From: Escherichia coli | Lineage (GTDB): Bacteria; Pseudomonadota; Gammaproteobacteria; Enterobacterales; Enterobacteriaceae | Length of the DNA: 60,030 nt | NCBI RefSeq assembly: GCF_003334405.1 | Contig: NZ_QOWM01000020.1 | Direction: 5' to 3' (one strand) | Shown here: positions 9,067 through 31,098 of the stretch, piece by piece | How positions within the stretch are numbered: position 1 is the first letter of the stretch | Layout: each line of letters opens with the position of its first letter | Notes under the pieces: generated by a model | What the model saw: the letters and a program-made list of their open reading frames with translations, nothing else | Told to the model about the DNA's origin: nothing | The model's database searches: none | Made by a program: the position numbers and the translations under genes

Positions 9067-9843
9067 ATGTTACGTTTCTCTGCTAATTTATCGATGTTAT
9101 TTGGAGAATATGATTTTCTCGCCCGTTTTGAGAAAGCTGCGCAGTGTGGTTTTCGCGGCGTTGAATTTATGTTTCCTTATGACTACGACATTGAAGAATT
9201 AAAACATGTGCTGGCGAGTAATAAACTCGAACATACGCTGCACAATTTACCGGCGGGTGACTGGGCGGCGGGGGAGCGCGGTATTGCCTGTATTCCTGGC
9301 CGTGAAGAAGAGTTTCGGGATGGCGTAGCAGCAGCGATTCGTTATGCCCGTGCGCTGGGTAATAAAAAAATTAACTGTCTGGTCGGTAAAACGCCGGCTG
9401 GTTTCAGCAGTGAACAGATTCACGCAACGCTTGTAGAAAACCTGCGTTATGCCGCGAATATGCTGATGAAAGAAGATATTTTATTACTGATTGAACCTAT
9501 TAACCATTTTGATATTCCTGGTTTCCATCTCACCGGAACTCGGCAGGCGCTGAAATTGATTGATGATGTTGGTTGCTGCAATTTGAAAATTCAGTATGAC
9601 ATTTATCATATGCAGCGGATGGAAGGTGAATTAACCAACACCATGACTCAGTGGGCTGATAAAATTGGTCACCTGCAAATTGCCGATAATCCGCATCGCG
9701 GCGAACCGGGAACCGGAGAAATTAATTATGATTATCTCTTTAAGGTAATCGAAAATTCTGACTACAACGGTTGGGTTGGGTGTGAATATAAACCCCAAAC
9801 CACCACGGAAGCCGGTTTACGCTGGATGGATCCGTACCGTTAA
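9067..9843 (+). CDS. hyi: Hydroxypyruvate isomerase
   Basis: 258 aa; TIM-barrel xylose-isomerase-like; synteny. Confidence 0.9.
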   Translation: MLRFSANLSMLFGEYDFLARFEKAAQCGFRGVEFMFPYDYDIEELKHVLASNKLEHTLHNLPAGDWAAGERGIACIPGREEEFRDGVAAAIRYARALGNKKINCLVGKTPAGFSSEQIHATLVENLRYAANMLMKEDILLLIEPINHFDIPGFHLTGTRQALKLIDDVGCCNLKIQYDIYHMQRMEGELTNTMTQWADKIGHLQIADNPHRGEPGTGEINYDYLFKVIENSDYNGWVGCEYKPQTTTEAGLRWMDPYR

Positions 9844-9942
9844 AACGTAACGCTATTCAGACAATGCTTTTTTAGGCCGCTAAGTTGGCAGGGGATCGTG
9901 TTGTCTGAATTCAGGAAAAGCGAAATTTAAAAGAGGTTAATT

Positions 9943-10821
9943 ATGAAACTGGGATTTATTGGCTTAGGCATTATGGGTACACCGATGGCCATTAATCTGG
10001 CGCGTGCCGGTCATCAATTACATGTCACGACCATTGGACCGGTTGCTGATGAATTACTGTCACTGGGTGCCGTCAGTGTTGAAACTGCTCGCCAGGTAAC
10101 GGAAGCATCGGACATCATTTTTATTATGGTGCCGGACACACCTCAGGTTGAAGAAGTTCTGTTCGGTGAAAATGGTTGTACCAAAGCCTCGCTGAAGGGC
10201 AAAACCATTGTTGATATGAGCTCCATTTCCCCGATTGAAACTAAGCGTTTCGCTCGTCAGGTGAATGAACTGGGCGGCGATTATCTCGATGCGCCAGTCT
10301 CCGGCGGTGAAATCGGTGCGCGTGAAGGGACGTTGTCGATTATGGTTGGCGGTGATGAAGCGGTATTTGAACGTGTTAAACCGCTGTTTGAACTGCTCGG
10401 TAAAAATATCACCCTCGTGGGCGGTAACGGCGATGGTCAAACCTGCAAAGTGGCAAATCAGATTATCGTGGCGCTCAATATTGAAGCGGTTTCTGAAGCC
10501 CTGCTATTTGCTTCAAAAGCCGGTGCGGACCCGGTACGTGTGCGCCAGGCGCTGATGGGCGGCTTTGCTTCCTCACGTATTCTGGAAGTTCATGGCGAGC
10601 GTATGATTAAACGCACCTTTAATCCGGGCTTCAAAATCGCTCTGCACCAGAAAGATCTCAACCTGGCACTGCAAAGTGCGAAAGCACTTGCGCTGAACCT
10701 GCCAAACACTGCGACCTGCCAGGAGTTATTTAATACCTGTGCGGCAAACGGTGGCAGCCAGTTGGATCACTCTGCGTTAGTGCAGGCGCTGGAATTAATG
10801 GCTAACCATAAACTGGCCTGA
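9943..10821 (+). CDS. glxR: Tartronate semialdehyde reductase
   Basis: 292 aa; Rossmann motif GLGIMGTPMA; synteny. Confidence 0.9.
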   Translation: MKLGFIGLGIMGTPMAINLARAGHQLHVTTIGPVADELLSLGAVSVETARQVTEASDIIFIMVPDTPQVEEVLFGENGCTKASLKGKTIVDMSSISPIETKRFARQVNELGGDYLDAPVSGGEIGAREGTLSIMVGGDEAVFERVKPLFELLGKNITLVGGNGDGQTCKVANQIIVALNIEAVSEALLFASKAGADPVRVRQALMGGFASSRILEVHGERMIKRTFNPGFKIALHQKDLNLALQSAKALALNLPNTATCQELFNTCAANGGSQLDHSALVQALELMANHKLA

Positions 10822-10852
10822 TACCCGCAATAAAAATGGCCGATATCAGAAA

Positions 10853-11131
10853 ATGAATCGGCCAGCAATATTAAAAAAGAAAGCAGCCAAAGATGTTGCT
10901 TCAGTATTAAAAATAATATTTTTATTTTATTTGTTCCTCATAGCTAGATTAAAACAACGTTATTCGATACGTGAAATTAAGAGGGATTTATGGAACATCA
11001 GAGAAAACTATTCCAGCAACGCGGCTATAGCGAAGATCTATTGCCGAAAACGCAAAGCCAGCGGACCTGGAAAACATTTAACTATTTTACCTTATGGATG
11101 GGTTCGGTTCATAACGTTCCCAATTATGTGA
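10853..11131 (+). CDS. ybbV: Small ORF upstream of and overlapping the permease start (YbbV-like, 92 aa)
   Basis: ORF only; overlaps the ybbW start in another frame, so it may be non-coding leader. Confidence 0.25.
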   Translation: MNRPAILKKKAAKDVASVLKIIFLFYLFLIARLKQRYSIREIKRDLWNIRENYSSNAAIAKIYCRKRKASGPGKHLTILPYGWVRFITFPIM

Positions 11132-12444
11132 TGGTCGGCGGCTTTTTTATTCTCGGCTTGTCTACCTTTAGTATTATGCTGGCAATTATCCTCAGCGCCT
11201 TTTTCATTGCCGCGGTAATGGTATTAAACGGTGCTGCGGGCAGTAAATACGGTGTGCCTTTTGCCATGATCCTGCGTGCTTCTTACGGTGTACGTGGTGC
11301 ACTGTTTCCCGGATTATTAAGGGGCGGAATTGCCGCCATCATGTGGTTTGGTTTGCAATGTTACGCGGGGTCACTGGCCTGCTTGATTCTGATTGGCAAA
11401 ATCTGGCCGGGATTTTTAACTCTCGGTGGTGATTTCACTCTGTTAGGCCTTTCTCTACCGGGCTTAATTACTTTCTTAATCTTCTGGCTGGTCAACGTTG
11501 GTATAGGTTTTGGCGGTGGCAAAGTTTTAAATAAATTCACTGCCATTCTTAACCCGTGCATCTATATCGTTTTCGGCGGTATGGCGATTTGGGCGATTTC
11601 ACTGGTCGGGATCGGTCCAATCTTTGACTACATTCCGAGCGGTATTCAGAAAGCAGAAAACGGTGGCTTCCTGTTCCTGGTGGTGATTAACGCGGTAGTT
11701 GCGGTCTGGGCGGCACCGGCGGTGAGCGCATCCGACTTTACGCAAAACGCCCACTCGTTTCGTGAGCAGGCGCTGGGGCAAACGCTGGGTTTAGTTGTGG
11801 CCTATATTCTGTTTGCGGTCGCCGGGGTATGTATTATTGCCGGAGCCAGTATTCACTACGGCGCTGATACCTGGAACGTGCTGGATATTGTTCAGCGTTG
11901 GGACAGCCTGTTCGCCTCGTTCTTTGCGGTACTGGTTATTCTGATGACAACTATCTCCACTAACGCGACCGGTAATATTATTCCAGCCGGTTATCAGATT
12001 GCCGCCATTGCACCGACAAAACTGACCTATAAAAACGGCGTACTGATTGCCAGTATTATCAGCTTGCTGATCTGCCCGTGGAAATTAATGGAAAATCAGG
12101 ACAGCATTTATCTTTTCCTCGATATTATCGGCGGAATGCTTGGTCCGGTAATTGGTGTCATGATGGCGCATTATTTTGTGGTGATGCGCGGACAAATTAA
12201 TCTTGATGAACTGTATACCGCACCTGGCGATTATAAATATTACGATAACGGTTTTAACCTCACTGCGTTTTCAGTAACTCTGGTGGCCGTTATTTTATCT
12301 CTTGGCGGTAAGTTTATTCACTTTATGGAACCGTTATCGCGTGTTTCATGGTTTGTCGGCGTCATCGTCGCCTTTGCGGCCTACGCCTTATTAAAGAAAC
12401 GTACAACAGCAGAAAAAACAGGAGAGCAAAAAACCATAGGTTAA
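10990..12444 (+). CDS. ybbW: Allantoin permease, NCS1 family
   Basis: 484 aa polytopic membrane protein; synteny within the allantoin cluster. Confidence 0.9.
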   Translation: MEHQRKLFQQRGYSEDLLPKTQSQRTWKTFNYFTLWMGSVHNVPNYVMVGGFFILGLSTFSIMLAIILSAFFIAAVMVLNGAAGSKYGVPFAMILRASYGVRGALFPGLLRGGIAAIMWFGLQCYAGSLACLILIGKIWPGFLTLGGDFTLLGLSLPGLITFLIFWLVNVGIGFGGGKVLNKFTAILNPCIYIVFGGMAIWAISLVGIGPIFDYIPSGIQKAENGGFLFLVVINAVVAVWAAPAVSASDFTQNAHSFREQALGQTLGLVVAYILFAVAGVCIIAGASIHYGADTWNVLDIVQRWDSLFASFFAVLVILMTTISTNATGNIIPAGYQIAAIAPTKLTYKNGVLIASIISLLICPWKLMENQDSIYLFLDIIGGMLGPVIGVMMAHYFVVMRGQINLDELYTAPGDYKYYDNGFNLTAFSVTLVAVILSLGGKFIHFMEPLSRVSWFVGVIVAFAAYALLKKRTTAEKTGEQKTIG

Positions 12445-24883: not shown

Positions 24884-25951
24884 TTAACCGAACTTACTCT
24901 GCGCCCAAATCACGCCGCTGGCATATTCCGGCGGCAGCAGCGGGATTAAGGCTTCCAGCGTCGCAGTCAGACGCGATGTGTCGCTGTCGGTCAAATTCAG
25001 ATGCCCCACTTTACGCCCCGGACGGACTTCTTTGTCGTACCAGTGCAGATGCACCAGCGGCAATTTCAGCCAGTCATAATTCACATCGCTACCAATCAGA
25101 TTGATCATCACCGACGGATTATTCACTACTGGTTGCGGTAACGGCAGATCGGTAATCGCCCGCAGATGCAGCTCAAACTGGCTGATGCTGGCACCGTTTT
25201 GCGTCCAGTGACCACTGTTATGCACACGCGGAGCCAGTTCGTTGATCAGCAGACCTTGCGGGGTGACAAAACACTCCATCGCCATCACGCCCACATAGCC
25301 CAGCTCCTGCATAATCGCCGACAGCATCTCTTCGGCTTGCGCCTGCTGCTGTGCGTTGGCCTGCGGAAAAGCGACGCTGGTGCGCAAAATACCGTCCTGA
25401 TGCAGGTTATGCGTCAGCGGATAAAACACGGTGCTGCCATCAAAGCCGCGCGCGCCAACCAGCGACACTTCACCAGAGAAGTTTATGCCCTGCTCGACAA
25501 TACATTCGCCGTAGCATTCAGCCGGTAACTGTTCGGTTTCATCGGCGCGTAAACGCCATTGACCGCGTCCGTCATAGCCACCAGTGCGACGCTTAACAAT
25601 CGCCAGTTCACCTAAACGATCAAACACCGCAGGCCACTCGCTGCGATCGGCAAGTAACTGCCACGGCGCGGTCGGCAGGTGGAGCTTATCGAAAAGCTGC
25701 TTCTGAGTCAGACGGTCGGCAATAATCGGGAACACATCGCGGTTCACAAAGGCCGGATGGCGTGCCAGCTCGCGGGTTAATGCGGTTTCCGGCCAACGTT
25801 CGATCTCAGCGGTAATCACGCTTTGTTGAAAAGGCACCGCCGCCGGTTCAGCGTCCAGCCCGACCGGCCAGACAGCAATGCCTAACGGTTCGCCTGCCTG
25901 ACGCAGCATACGGCCTAACTGCCCGTTACCGAGGACGCAAACCTGTTTCAT
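24884..25951 (-). CDS. purK: N5-carboxyaminoimidazole ribonucleotide synthase
   Basis: 355 aa; ATP-grasp; overlaps purE by 4 nt. Confidence 0.9.
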
Positions 25952-26457
25952 GCCGCACCTCGCGGGTCCGGGTTTTCCAGCACTTCATCAGTTTGTGCTT
26001 TGCGCCAGTCATTCAGACGTTGGTGCAGTTCTTTATCATGAGTCGCAAGAATTTGTGCTGCCAGTAATGCCGCGTTTGCCGCGCCAGCTTTACCAATCGC
26101 CAGCGTACCCACCGGAATGCCGCGCGGCATTTGTACGATTGAGTAGAGGCTATCGACACCGCTCAGTGCGGCGCTCTGTACTGGTACGCCCAGCACCGGC
26201 ACCAGCGTTTTGGCGGCAATCATGCCTGGCAGGTGCGCTGCGCCGCCTGCGCCCGCAATAATCACCTGATAACCGTTCTCTTCGGCGCTTTCGGCGAAGC
26301 TGAACAGTTTATCGGGGGTGCGGTGAGCAGAAACCACTTCAACGTGGTGCGGGACATTCAGGATTTCGAAGATTTCGGCGGCGAACTGCATGGTAGCCCA
26401 GTCGCTTTTGGACCCCATCACGATGGCGACACGCGCCGGATTATTGCGGGAAGACAT
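25948..26457 (-). CDS. purE: N5-CAIR mutase
   Basis: ~169 aa from [20 protein letters not shown]. Confidence 0.9.
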
Positions 26458-26527
26458 GCGTCTTAAAACTCCTGTGGTGCACAACTCTCGGCTTTAGAGG
26501 GCACAGAGAATAGCACGGAAAGAGAGT

Positions 26528-26544
26528 AAGGAAAACGGTTGCGT
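26528..26544 (-). promoter_or_regulatory. Candidate PurR operator upstream of purEK
   Basis: Minus-strand ACGCAACCGTTTTCCTT resembles the PurR box (ACGCAAACGTTTTCNT); it sits upstream of the purE start. Confidence 0.45.
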
Positions 26545-26574
26545 GGCTGTGAAATCAGCAAAGTTGCGGGTTTT

Positions 26575-27297
26575 TTAAAACGGAAAATGAATCAGCTCAA
26601 CGTCATCCGCCGTGACTTTCACCATCGAACCTTCCGTATGCCAGGCACCCAGTACCACGCGAAAAGCAGGTTGCTGGTTGGCGATAAGTTCATGTACCGC
26701 CGGGCGATGGGTATGCCCGTGAATCAGCCATTGCACCTGATGTTTTTCCATCGCACTGACCACCGCGTTTTGGTTAACGTCCATGATCGCCAGCGATTTA
26801 CTGCTGTTGGCTTCTTTGCTGTTCGCGCGCATTCGCGCGGCAATGCGTTTGCGCACAAACAATGGCAGAGCGAGGAATAGCGTCTGCAGCCAGGGTTTGT
26901 GGACTTTGGCGCGAAAAGCCTGATAACCCGCGTCATCGGTGCACAGCGTGTCGCCATGCATAATCAACACCCGACGACCATAAAGTTCGAGCACCTTTTC
27001 TTCCGGCAATAACGTCATGCCGCTTTCACGGGCAAAGCGTTTGCCGAGCAGAAAATCACGGTTGCCATGAATGAAATAACAGGGAACGCCGGAATCGGAC
27101 ACCGCTTTGATCGCTGCCGCCATCTGGCGATGGAGTGGGTTGGGATCGTCGTCGCCAATCCACGCTTCAAACAGATCGCCAAGAATATACAGCGCGTCGG
27201 CCTTGCGAGCTTCCCCCGCTAAAAAACGCAGAAAACCGGCGGTGATCGCCGGTTCTTCCACGCAGAGATGAAGATCTGCAATAAAGAGTGTCGCCAC
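26575..27297 (-). CDS. lpxH: UDP-2,3-diacylglucosamine hydrolase (lipid A biosynthesis)
   Basis: 240 aa; calcineurin-like phosphoesterase motifs (DLHL ... GNRD ... GHTH). Confidence 0.9.
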
Positions 27298-27299
27298 GA

Positions 27300-27794
27300 T
27301 TACTCGCTAACGGTCACGCTTTCAATGATAACGTCTTCTTTTGGCACGTCCTGGTGCATACCGCTACGACCGGTTGCAACACCTTTGATTTTGTCTACCA
27401 CGTCCATGCCTTCAACCACTTCAGCAAACACGCAGTAGCCCCAACCTTGCAGGCTTTCGCCAGAGAAGTTCAGGAAGTCGTTATCAACCACGTTGATGAA
27501 GAACTGTGCAGTTGCAGAGTGCGGAGCCTGAGTACGGGCCATTGCCAGCGTACCACGGGTATTTTTCAGACCGTTGTTGGCTTCGTTTTTGATCGGTTCT
27601 TTGGTGGCTTTTTGTTTCATGCCCGGTTCAAAACCGCCGCCCTGAATCATAAAGCCGTTGATAACACGGTGGAAAATGGTGTTGTTGTAAAAACCTTCGC
27701 GGCAGTAGTCCAGGAAGTTTTTAACTGTTTCAGGTGCTTTATCGTCAAAAGTTTTGATGACAATATCGCCGTGATTGGTGTGGAAAGTAACCAT
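27300..27794 (-). CDS. ppiB: Peptidyl-prolyl cis-trans isomerase B (cyclophilin)
   Basis: 164 aa; cyclophilin fold. Confidence 0.9.
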
Positions 27795-30231: not shown

Positions 30232-31098
30232 TTACTCACCCTGTGGATCATGATATTCAACGCACGCCTGTAGCGTGTTTTCAATCAGCGTGGCAACCGT
30301 CATCGGGCCAACGCCGCCGGGAACAGGCGTAATGTATGAGGCGCGTTTAGCCGCGTCTTCAAACACCACGTCGCCCACAACTTTGCCATTTTCCAGACGG
30401 TTGATGCCGACATCAATCACAATTGCGCCTTCTTTGATCCAGTCACCAGGAATAAAGCCCGGCTTGCCGACGGCAACGATCAACAGATCGGCATTTTCTA
30501 CGTGATGACGCAGATTTTTAGTGAAGCGGTGAGTCACGGTAGTGGTGCAACCTGCTAGCAGCAGTTCCATGCTCATCGGGCGGCCAACGATATTCGATGC
30601 GCCAATCACCACGGCGTTGAGGCCGAAGGTATCAATGTTGTAACGCTCAAGCAGCGTGACGATGCCGCGCGGGGTGCAGGGACGCAGACGCGGCGCGCGC
30701 TGGCACAGGCGACCGACGTTATAAGGATGGAAACCGTCTACGTCTTTGTCCGGGTGAATACGTTCCAGTACTTTGACGTTATCAATACCCGCCGGTAACG
30801 GCAGTTGAACCAGAATGCCATCAATGGTGTTGTCGGCATTCAGCGCATCGATAAGCTCCAGCAGCTCCGCTTCGCTGGTGGTTTCCGGGAGGTCATAAGA
30901 GCGGGAGACGAACCCGACTTCTTCACAAGCCTTGCGTTTGCTTGCGACATAAATTTGCGATGCAGGGTTACTACCCACCAGCACAACGGCCAGTCCTGGT
31001 GCCCGCAGTCCGGCTGCAATACGCGCCTGAACTTTTTGAGCAACTTCAGAGCGCACCTGCTGCGCAATCGTTTTACCGTCAATAATCTTTGCTGCCAT
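30232..31098 (-). CDS. folD: Bifunctional methylenetetrahydrofolate dehydrogenase/cyclohydrolase
   Basis: 288 aa from [13 protein letters not shown]. Confidence 0.9.

What the first reader, a model, noticed from the sequence alone, without database searches (positions are those of the whole stretch)
26528..26544. PurR-box-like sequence upstream of purEK
Minus-strand ACGCAACCGTTTTCCTT matches the PurR operator consensus at most positions and sits in the purE promoter region, as expected for purine-repressed purEK.
Basis: partly seen in the sequence, partly recalled or inferred. Interest (0 to 1): 0.15.

Follow-up and report, generated by a model that had tools for sequence, protein, structure and literature searches.

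The report
Known PurR operator of purEK promoter

Summary
The sequence is there. The window is E. coli chromosome (ybcF, purK, purE, lpxH, ppiB, cysS). The box lies 72-87 nt upstream of the purE ATG, in the 117-bp lpxH-purE spacer.

The plus-strand 16-mer AGGAAAACGGTTGCGT is letter-for-letter the PurR motif that Cho et al. 2011 (PMC3159470, Table 1) report under the purE-purK ChIP-chip peak. That peak is stronger with adenine than without (log2 2.08 vs 0.86).

A leave-one-out weight matrix built from the other 27 ChIP motifs scores the box at 19.7 bits. This is the best hit in the 60-kb window, with about 2e-5 expected by chance in the spacer.

In 54 of 55 Enterobacterales purE loci the box sits in the same orientation and place. 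It is 96% conserved, against 40% for the 30 nt just upstream of it.

A conserved extended -10 (TGcTATTCT) lies 16 nt downstream. This places the box over the -35 region, so the likely mechanism is repression of transcription initiation by promoter occlusion.

Verdict: observation confirmed, interpretation supported, already known, low interest.

Side notes: a minority G-to-A SNP two bases from the box, a strain-variable insertion ending 3 nt upstream of it, and a conserved PurR-like site inside folD.

The parts
26529..26544 (-). PurR operator (PUR box) of purEK: ACGCAACCGTTTTCCT, a pseudo-palindrome with the central CpG at 26537/26536
   Evidence: sequence and consensus; 19.7 bits, best hit in the window; identical to the ChIP-chip motif 552395-552410 of Cho 2011; 96% conserved in 55 enterobacterial upstream regions; variation only at positions 1 and 7
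26530..26535 (-). Weak -35-like hexamer TTTTCC (3/6 to TTGACA, 17-nt spacer), lying inside the operator
   Evidence: Read directly from the sequence relative to the -10 hexamer. Inferred; the consensus promoter scan does not accept it
26507..26515 (-). Extended -10 element TGcTATTCT (TG 26515-26514; hexamer TATTCT 26512-26507)
   Evidence: the hexamer is 98.5% identical across 55 upstream regions. TG is at least 90% identical to the window across the 55 sequences, and by eye it is present in every row of the alignment. Function is inferred from position and conservation
26498..26502 (-). Inferred transcription start zone of purEK
   Evidence: Inferred from the -10 position. My recollection of Tiedeman et al. 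1989 is a 5' end 41 nt upstream of the ATG (= 26498); that paper could not be read here
26469..26473 (-). Shine-Dalgarno AGGAG of purE
   Evidence: CACAGGAG is conserved in nearly all aligned sequences
25948..26457 (-). purE (N5-CAIR mutase), the first regulated gene; ATG at 26457
   Evidence: RefSeq annotation of an identical E. coli sequence
24884..25951 (-). purK (N5-CAIR synthase), the second gene of the operon; it overlaps the purE stop
26575..27297 (-). lpxH, the upstream co-directional neighbour. It is not part of the regulon; it marks the upstream edge of the 117-bp control region
   Evidence: No terminator-like hairpin between lpxH and the box

Best explanation
The 16 bp at 26529-26544 are the PurR operator of the E. 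coli purEK promoter.

When hypoxanthine or guanine accumulates, it binds the PurR dimer, a LacI/GalR-family repressor, as corepressor. The liganded dimer then binds this pseudo-palindrome. Its helix-turn-helix motifs read the two half-sites (ACGCAAC and its imperfect mirror AGGAAAA), and the hinge region opens and bends the minor groove at the central CpG.

The operator covers roughly -46/-43 to -31/-28 of a promoter that has a weak -35 and relies on an extended -10 (TGcTATTCT). Bound PurR therefore keeps RNA polymerase off the promoter, and purE-purK transcription falls. When purines are scarce PurR leaves and the operon is expressed.

Shown: Inferred: the exact transcription start and hence the exact promoter coordinates, and steric occlusion as the mode of repression.
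For: (1): Cho et al. 2011 Table 1 lists a PurR ChIP-chip region 552127-552626 for purE-purK, with motif AGGAAAACGGTTGCGT at 552395-552410. Log2 enrichment is 2.08 with adenine and 0.86 without. The window plus strand at 26529-26544 is identical, with the same 72-nt offset from the purE ATG.

(2): the same paper places purEK among the IMP-biosynthesis operons repressed by PurR-hypoxanthine. It states that PurR sites generally lie over the -35/-10 region.

(3): 19.7-19.9 bits on a matrix built without this site. It is the top hit of the window, with about 2e-5 expected in the spacer.

(4): 54 of 55 Enterobacterales purE loci carry a box of at least 17.9 bits. These include Escherichia, Salmonella, Citrobacter, Enterobacter, Leclercia, Lelliottia, Pluralibacter, Yokenella, Rosenbergiella, Morganella and Enterobacillus. 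The box has the same orientation and a fixed distance from the coding sequence. Most loci from other orders score below 10 bits.

(5): identity to the window is 0.96 in the box, 0.40 in the 30 nt upstream and 0.57 in the spacer. The only variable box positions are 1 (A/G) and 7 (C/T/A). Conservation starts at the box even where the upstream neighbour is not lpxH.

(6): the review PMC10912719 summarises the corepressors, helix-turn-helix binding, minor-groove opening and loss of RNA polymerase access.

(7): PurR entries, including 1pnr and 1qpz, are in the PDB. That these are complexes with operator DNA and corepressor is from my own knowledge.
Against: No binding or expression experiment was done on this exact allele. 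The window carries A instead of the common G at 26527, 2 nt outside the box.

The sigma-70 consensus scan finds no promoter here, so the promoter assignment rests on the conserved extended -10 and on literature I could not open.

The match to the ideal palindrome is only 13/16, and simple consensus counting is not significant on its own.

One Enterobacterales symbiont (Ca. Fukatsuia, L061) has purE without any box.
Confidence: 0.97

Rival explanations
1. The block is conserved because it is core promoter DNA (-35 region or upstream contacts for RNA polymerase), and its resemblance to a PurR box is secondary.
For: The box overlaps the only plausible -35 position. It is conserved together with the -10 element.
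Against: The -35-like hexamer is poor (3/6), and a promoter with an extended -10 needs little from it. Conservation covers all 16 bp, including the promoter-distal ACGCAA half-site and the central CpG, which matches the PurR matrix. PurR occupies this place in vivo in an adenine-responsive manner. The two roles are not exclusive; overlap is the mechanism of repression.
Confidence: 0.02
2. The site belongs mainly to another LacI-family regulator, for example the PurR paralogue RbsR, which represses purHD.
For: RbsR is the closest solved relative of PurR. It is reported to act on purine genes. LacI-family operators share the central CG and A/T-rich core.
Against: The site scores in the middle of the range of bona fide PurR sites. 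It lies under a PurR ChIP peak. From memory, it matches only about half of the RbsR operator positions. No report of RbsR at purEK was met in the papers read.
Confidence: 0.01
3. It is a chance match with no function.
For: Consensus counting at the mismatch limits searched expects 0.2-0.5 such matches per 60-kb window.
Against: The weight-matrix expectation is about 2e-5 in the spacer. The site is invariant in position and almost invariant in sequence across genera whose flanking DNA has diverged or been replaced. There is published in vivo occupancy.
Confidence: 0.005

Closest known systems
E. coli K-12 purEK PurR operator (PUR box), as mapped by ChIP-chip in Cho et al. 2011 (PMC3159470). From my own knowledge, it was first described by Tiedeman et al. 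1989 and shown to bind PurR by He et al. 1990
   Same: Identical 16-bp sequence. Same distance to the purE ATG, same flanking genes, same species.
   Different: Nothing within the operator. The window strain has A instead of G two bases downstream of it (26527), an allele seen in 133 of 5426 complete E. coli genomes.
purF operator, the site used in the PurR-hypoxanthine-DNA crystal structures (that 1pnr and related entries are such complexes is from my own knowledge); genomic form ACGCAAACGTTTTCTT
   Same: 16-bp pseudo-palindrome, central CpG, the same strong ACGCAA half-site and T-rich weaker half. It overlaps the promoter and is repressed through the same corepressors.
   Different: The purE box has C instead of A at position 7 and CC instead of CT at positions 14-15. 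The leave-one-out score is 19.7 bits against 21.5 for purF.
Intragenic PurR sites of purB and purR (roadblock type)
   Same: Same protein and same motif.
   Different: Those sites lie inside coding sequence and block elongation. The purE site lies upstream of the inferred transcription start, over the -35 region, so it should act on initiation.

Membership tests
PurR (LacI/GalR-type) operator of the enterobacterial pur regulon | 16-bp pseudo-palindrome matching ACGNAAACGTTTGCNT / ACGCAAACGTTTGCGT | tested here: met
   13/16 to the palindrome and 1 mismatch to ACGCAAACGTTTTCNT. 19.7 bits on a leave-one-out matrix, rank 12 of 28 among known sites.
PurR (LacI/GalR-type) operator of the enterobacterial pur regulon | Central CpG step, where the hinge helices open the minor groove | tested here: met
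   C8-G9 of the box is at 26537/26536. It is invariant in all 55 aligned sequences.
PurR (LacI/GalR-type) operator of the enterobacterial pur regulon | Location overlapping the promoter of a purine or nucleotide-metabolism gene | tested here: met
   The box is 72-87 nt upstream of the purE ATG and 16 nt upstream of a conserved extended -10. The exact transcription start is inferred, not measured here.
PurR (LacI/GalR-type) operator of the enterobacterial pur regulon | Conserved upstream of orthologous genes in genomes that use this PurR | tested here: met
   54 of 55 Enterobacterales purE loci have it at the same place. Weaker boxes occur in two Pasteurellaceae. It is absent from Alteromonadales, Verrucomicrobia and others.
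PurR (LacI/GalR-type) operator of the enterobacterial pur regulon | Occupied by PurR, with occupancy increased by purines | not testable with these tools
It is reported for the identical K-12 sequence: ChIP-chip log2 2.08 with adenine and 0.86 without.
PurR (LacI/GalR-type) operator of the enterobacterial pur regulon | PurR-dependent repression of the downstream operon | not testable with these tools
   The literature lists purEK among operons repressed by PurR-hypoxanthine. From memory, He et al. 1990 measured 5- to 17-fold purR-dependent regulation of pur-lacZ fusions including purEK; that paper is not held.
PurR (LacI/GalR-type) operator of the enterobacterial pur regulon | Cognate purR gene in the same genome | not tested
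   By offset from the K-12 coordinates, the window corresponds to roughly K-12 positions 525.9-585.9 kb, while purR lies near 1.74 Mb. It is therefore expected to be outside the window. purR is a core E. coli gene by established knowledge.

The most novel reading that the evidence does not exclude
Besides occluding the purE promoter, PurR bound here could act as a roadblock to read-through transcription from ppiB-lpxH. In about 19% of E. coli it could do the same for the small inserted ORF that ends about 9 nt upstream of the box. No terminator-like hairpin separates the upstream gene from the operator. The minority G-to-A allele at 26527 in this strain might also shift promoter strength or PurR affinity slightly.
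Probability: 0.1. Interest if true: 0.2.

Novelty: already known. Interest (0 to 1): 0.04.

Why it matters
It matters little beyond annotation. It confirms that a bare-sequence reader can recognise a textbook operator. It also gives a clean positive control: a site with published in vivo occupancy, a strong weight-matrix score and a sharp phylogenetic footprint. The purEK operator is one of the classic sites that define the pur regulon, in which purine levels feed back on de novo IMP synthesis. The alignment made here also shows that the purE promoter consists of just two conserved islands, the operator and an extended -10. It shows that genome rearrangements upstream stop within a few bases of the operator.

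Tried and rejected
(a) The sigma-70 consensus scan of 26300-26800 found no promoter and no terminator. The promoter was therefore deduced from conservation, because the -35 is too weak for that scan.

(b) An Rfam scan of 25900-27400 at E<=1 gave only one meaningless sub-threshold hit, inside purE. There is no riboswitch or sRNA here, unlike the purE leader of Bacillus.

(c) The primary papers could not be read: He 1990, Tiedeman 1989, Watanabe 1989. Statements from them are marked as memory.

(d) The supplementary expression tables of Cho 2011 are not held.

(e) Two literature searches failed on syntax, and a third brought no paper with a mapped purE transcription start.

(f) Counting consensus mismatches alone was rejected as a significance test, since 0.2-0.5 hits are expected per window. 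It was replaced by a leave-one-out weight matrix.

(g) The idea that 'all Enterobacterales have the box' was corrected. Ca. Fukatsuia symbiotica has an intact purE but no box within 1.5 kb. Zophobihabitans, also without a box, belongs to Orbales.

Full report
**Observation.** The window at 26200-26900 was read on both strands. The PurR operator is conventionally 16 bp, so the feature proper is 26529-26544. The extra T at 26528 is flank.

The box matches the perfect palindrome ACGCAAACGTTTGCGT at 13 of 16 positions. It matches the older consensus ACGCAAACGTTTTCNT with a single mismatch. Both searches return this site as the only hit in the 60-kb window. At the mismatch limits searched, 0.47 and 0.23 hits are expected by chance per window, so consensus counting alone proves little.

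**Context.** ORF listing and a megablast against complete E. coli genomes show that the window is E. coli chromosome. The 501 bp around the site are 100% identical to many strains and are present in 5426 of 5426 genomes. RefSeq annotation of an identical strain gives the order ybcI, cysS, ppiB, lpxH, purE, purK, ybcF.

In window coordinates:
- purK is 24884-25951 (-).
- purE is 25948-26457 (-), with its ATG at 26457.
- lpxH is 26575-27297 (-).

The box therefore lies in the 117-bp lpxH-purE spacer, 72-87 nt upstream of the purE start codon.

**Already documented.** Cho et al. 2011, 'The PurR regulon in Escherichia coli K-12 MG1655' (PMC3159470), list a PurR ChIP-chip region for purE-purK at 552127-552626 in their Table 1. 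The motif is AGGAAAACGGTTGCGT at 552395-552410. That 16-mer is identical to the window plus strand at 26529-26544.

From my own knowledge of the K-12 coordinates, the purE start lies at 552323. On that basis the offset from the purE ATG (72 nt) is the same as in the window.

The log2 enrichment was 2.08 with adenine and 0.86 without, so occupancy responds to purine supply. The paper names purEK among the IMP-pathway operons repressed by the PurR-hypoxanthine complex. It counts purEK among the sites known before that study.

From my own knowledge, the box was noted when the operon was sequenced (Tiedeman et al. 1989). He et al. 1990 showed PurR binding to it and purR-dependent repression of a purEK-lacZ fusion. 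Those papers are not in the held library.

**Independent statistics.** I built a weight matrix from the 27 other motifs of that table, leaving purE out, and scanned the window. The box scores 19.7 bits, the best of about 120,000 positions. It ranks 12th of 28 among the known sites when each is scored leave-one-out.

23 of 500 first-order Markov shuffles of the window reach that score. Exact enumeration of the score distribution gives p = 9.5e-8 per position and strand. That is 0.011 expected per window and 2e-5 within the 117-bp spacer.

**Comparative evidence.** A degenerate DNA pattern for the purE codons [11 protein letters not shown] was scanned against one genome per species and returned 120 loci.

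In 54 of the 55 loci from Enterobacterales, the best matrix hit in the 330 nt upstream scores at least 17.9 bits. These include Escherichia, Salmonella, Citrobacter, Enterobacter, Leclercia, Lelliottia, Pluralibacter, Yokenella, Superficieibacter, Intestinirhabdus, Silvania, Pseudenterobacter, Enterobacillus, Rosenbergiella and Morganella. The box has the same orientation as in the window. It sits at a fixed distance from the coding pattern: -113 to -115 in most, -128 in Rosenbergiella and -156 in Morganella.

Other taxa:
- Two Pasteurellaceae have weaker boxes (13.8 and 16.2 bits).
- Most loci from other orders (Alteromonadales, Verrucomicrobia, Kiritimatiellales, lactobacilli and others) score below 10 bits and serve as a negative control.
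- The one exception within Enterobacterales is the aphid symbiont Ca. Fukatsuia symbiotica, which has an intact purE and no box within 1.5 kb.

A MAFFT alignment of the 55 box-bearing upstream regions gives a sharp footprint. Mean identity to the window is:

| Segment | Identity |
|---|---|
| 30 nt upstream of the box | 0.40 |
| 16 bp of the box | 0.96 |
| Following 16-nt spacer | 0.57 |
| TATTCT (26512-26507) | 0.985 |

Within the box only position 1 (A or G) and position 7 (C, T or A; A is the consensus base) vary. The central CpG is invariant.

The upstream neighbour is not lpxH in several genera, and the sequences there are unalignable. Conservation nevertheless begins at the box.

**Promoter and mechanism.** The conserved TATTCT is preceded by TG one base upstream (TGcTATTCT, 26515-26507). 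TG is at least 90% identical to the window across the 55 sequences and by eye is present in every row of the alignment. This is the form of an extended -10 promoter.

The hexamer 17 nt upstream, TTTTCC (26535-26530), matches TTGACA at only 3 of 6 positions and lies inside the operator. This explains why the consensus promoter scan reports nothing.

The -10 position predicts a start near 26500. My recollection of Tiedeman et al. is a 5' end 41 nt before the ATG, which is 26498. Either way the operator spans about -46/-43 to -31/-28.

This agrees with the general statement that PurR sites lie over the -35/-10 region and act on initiation. It also agrees with the mechanistic summary in PMC10912719:
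- Hypoxanthine and guanine are corepressors.
- They enable the helix-turn-helix domain to bind the palindrome.
- The minor groove is opened and the DNA bent.
- RNA polymerase loses access to the promoter.

PurR entries are in the PDB, including 1pnr and 1qpz. That these are complexes with operator DNA is from my own knowledge.

The exact start site and steric occlusion as the mode of repression are inferred.

**Rivals.**
- Conservation as pure promoter DNA does not explain the promoter-distal half-site, the CpG or the ChIP signal.
- A paralogous regulator such as RbsR is not supported by any data met here, and the site scores as a mid-range PurR site.
- Chance is excluded by the conservation.
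- No RNA family matches the region, so there is no riboswitch of the kind that precedes purE in Bacillus.

**Things seen in passing.**

(1) The window has A at 26527, two bases downstream of the box. Other Escherichia and most Enterobacteriaceae have G there. The exact 30-mer with A occurs in 133 of 5426 complete E. coli genomes, and the one with G in 4218.

(2) In about 1026 of 5426 E. coli genomes, homology to the window starts only at 26547, 3 nt upstream of the box. In IHE3034 the extra DNA of about 450 bp between lpxH and purE carries a 109-aa hypothetical ORF, co-directional with purE and ending about 9 nt before the box. E. albertii, E. whittamii and another Escherichia species share this arrangement.

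(3) The second-best matrix hit in the window is GGTAAAACGATTGCGC at 31062-31077 (-), 15.3 bits. It lies in codons 8-13 of folD. It is identical in 11 other Enterobacteriaceae loci, including all synonymous third positions, while the flanking codons show seven synonymous changes. It is not among the ChIP-chip regions of Cho 2011. From memory, folD was proposed as a candidate regulon member in a comparative study (Ravcheev et al. 2002).

(4) A locus labelled Chryseobacterium sp. 18061 (L075) has a typical Enterobacteriaceae purE control region, which suggests a mislabelled or contaminated assembly.

**Verdict.** This is the known purEK PurR operator, so novelty is nil and interest is low.

Noticed in passing
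window 26527: The window has A here (minus strand CCTTACTCT), two bases downstream of the operator, in the -35/-10 spacer. Other Escherichia and most Enterobacteriaceae have G. The exact 30-mer with A occurs in 133 of 5426 complete E. coli genomes and the one with G in 4218. Effect unknown, probably neutral.
   Followed up: partly
window 26545-26574; L122 3557-4005: In about 1026 of 5426 E. coli genomes (e.g. IHE3034), and in E. albertii, E. whittamii and Escherichia sp. MOD1, the lpxH-purE spacer holds about 450 bp of extra DNA. It carries a 109-aa hypothetical ORF on the purE strand. Homology to the window resumes 3 nt upstream of the PurR box.
   Followed up: partly
window 31062-31077 (-), inside folD (30232-31098, -): This is the second-best PurR-matrix hit of the window: GGTAAAACGATTGCGC, 15.3 bits, in folD codons 8-13. 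It is identical in 11 other Enterobacteriaceae, including all synonymous third positions, while neighbouring codons show synonymous changes. It is not in the ChIP-chip list of Cho 2011. It may be a weak or roadblock-type PurR site, or simply a conserved 5' coding region.
   Followed up: partly
window 26545-26577: There is no terminator-like hairpin between the lpxH stop codon and the purE operator. Read-through from ppiB-lpxH into purEK is therefore conceivable.
   Followed up: no
L075 (CACSKA010000001.1, labelled Chryseobacterium sp. 18061): Its purE control region and 5' coding sequence are typical of Enterobacteriaceae: the same box, -10 and Shine-Dalgarno. The assembly is probably mislabelled or contaminated.
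   Followed up: no
L061 (Ca. Fukatsuia symbiotica) 9600-11140: This is the only Enterobacterales locus in the sample with an intact purE but no PurR-like box within 1.5 kb upstream (best hit 7.8 bits). This is consistent with loss of regulation in a symbiont.
   Followed up: partly
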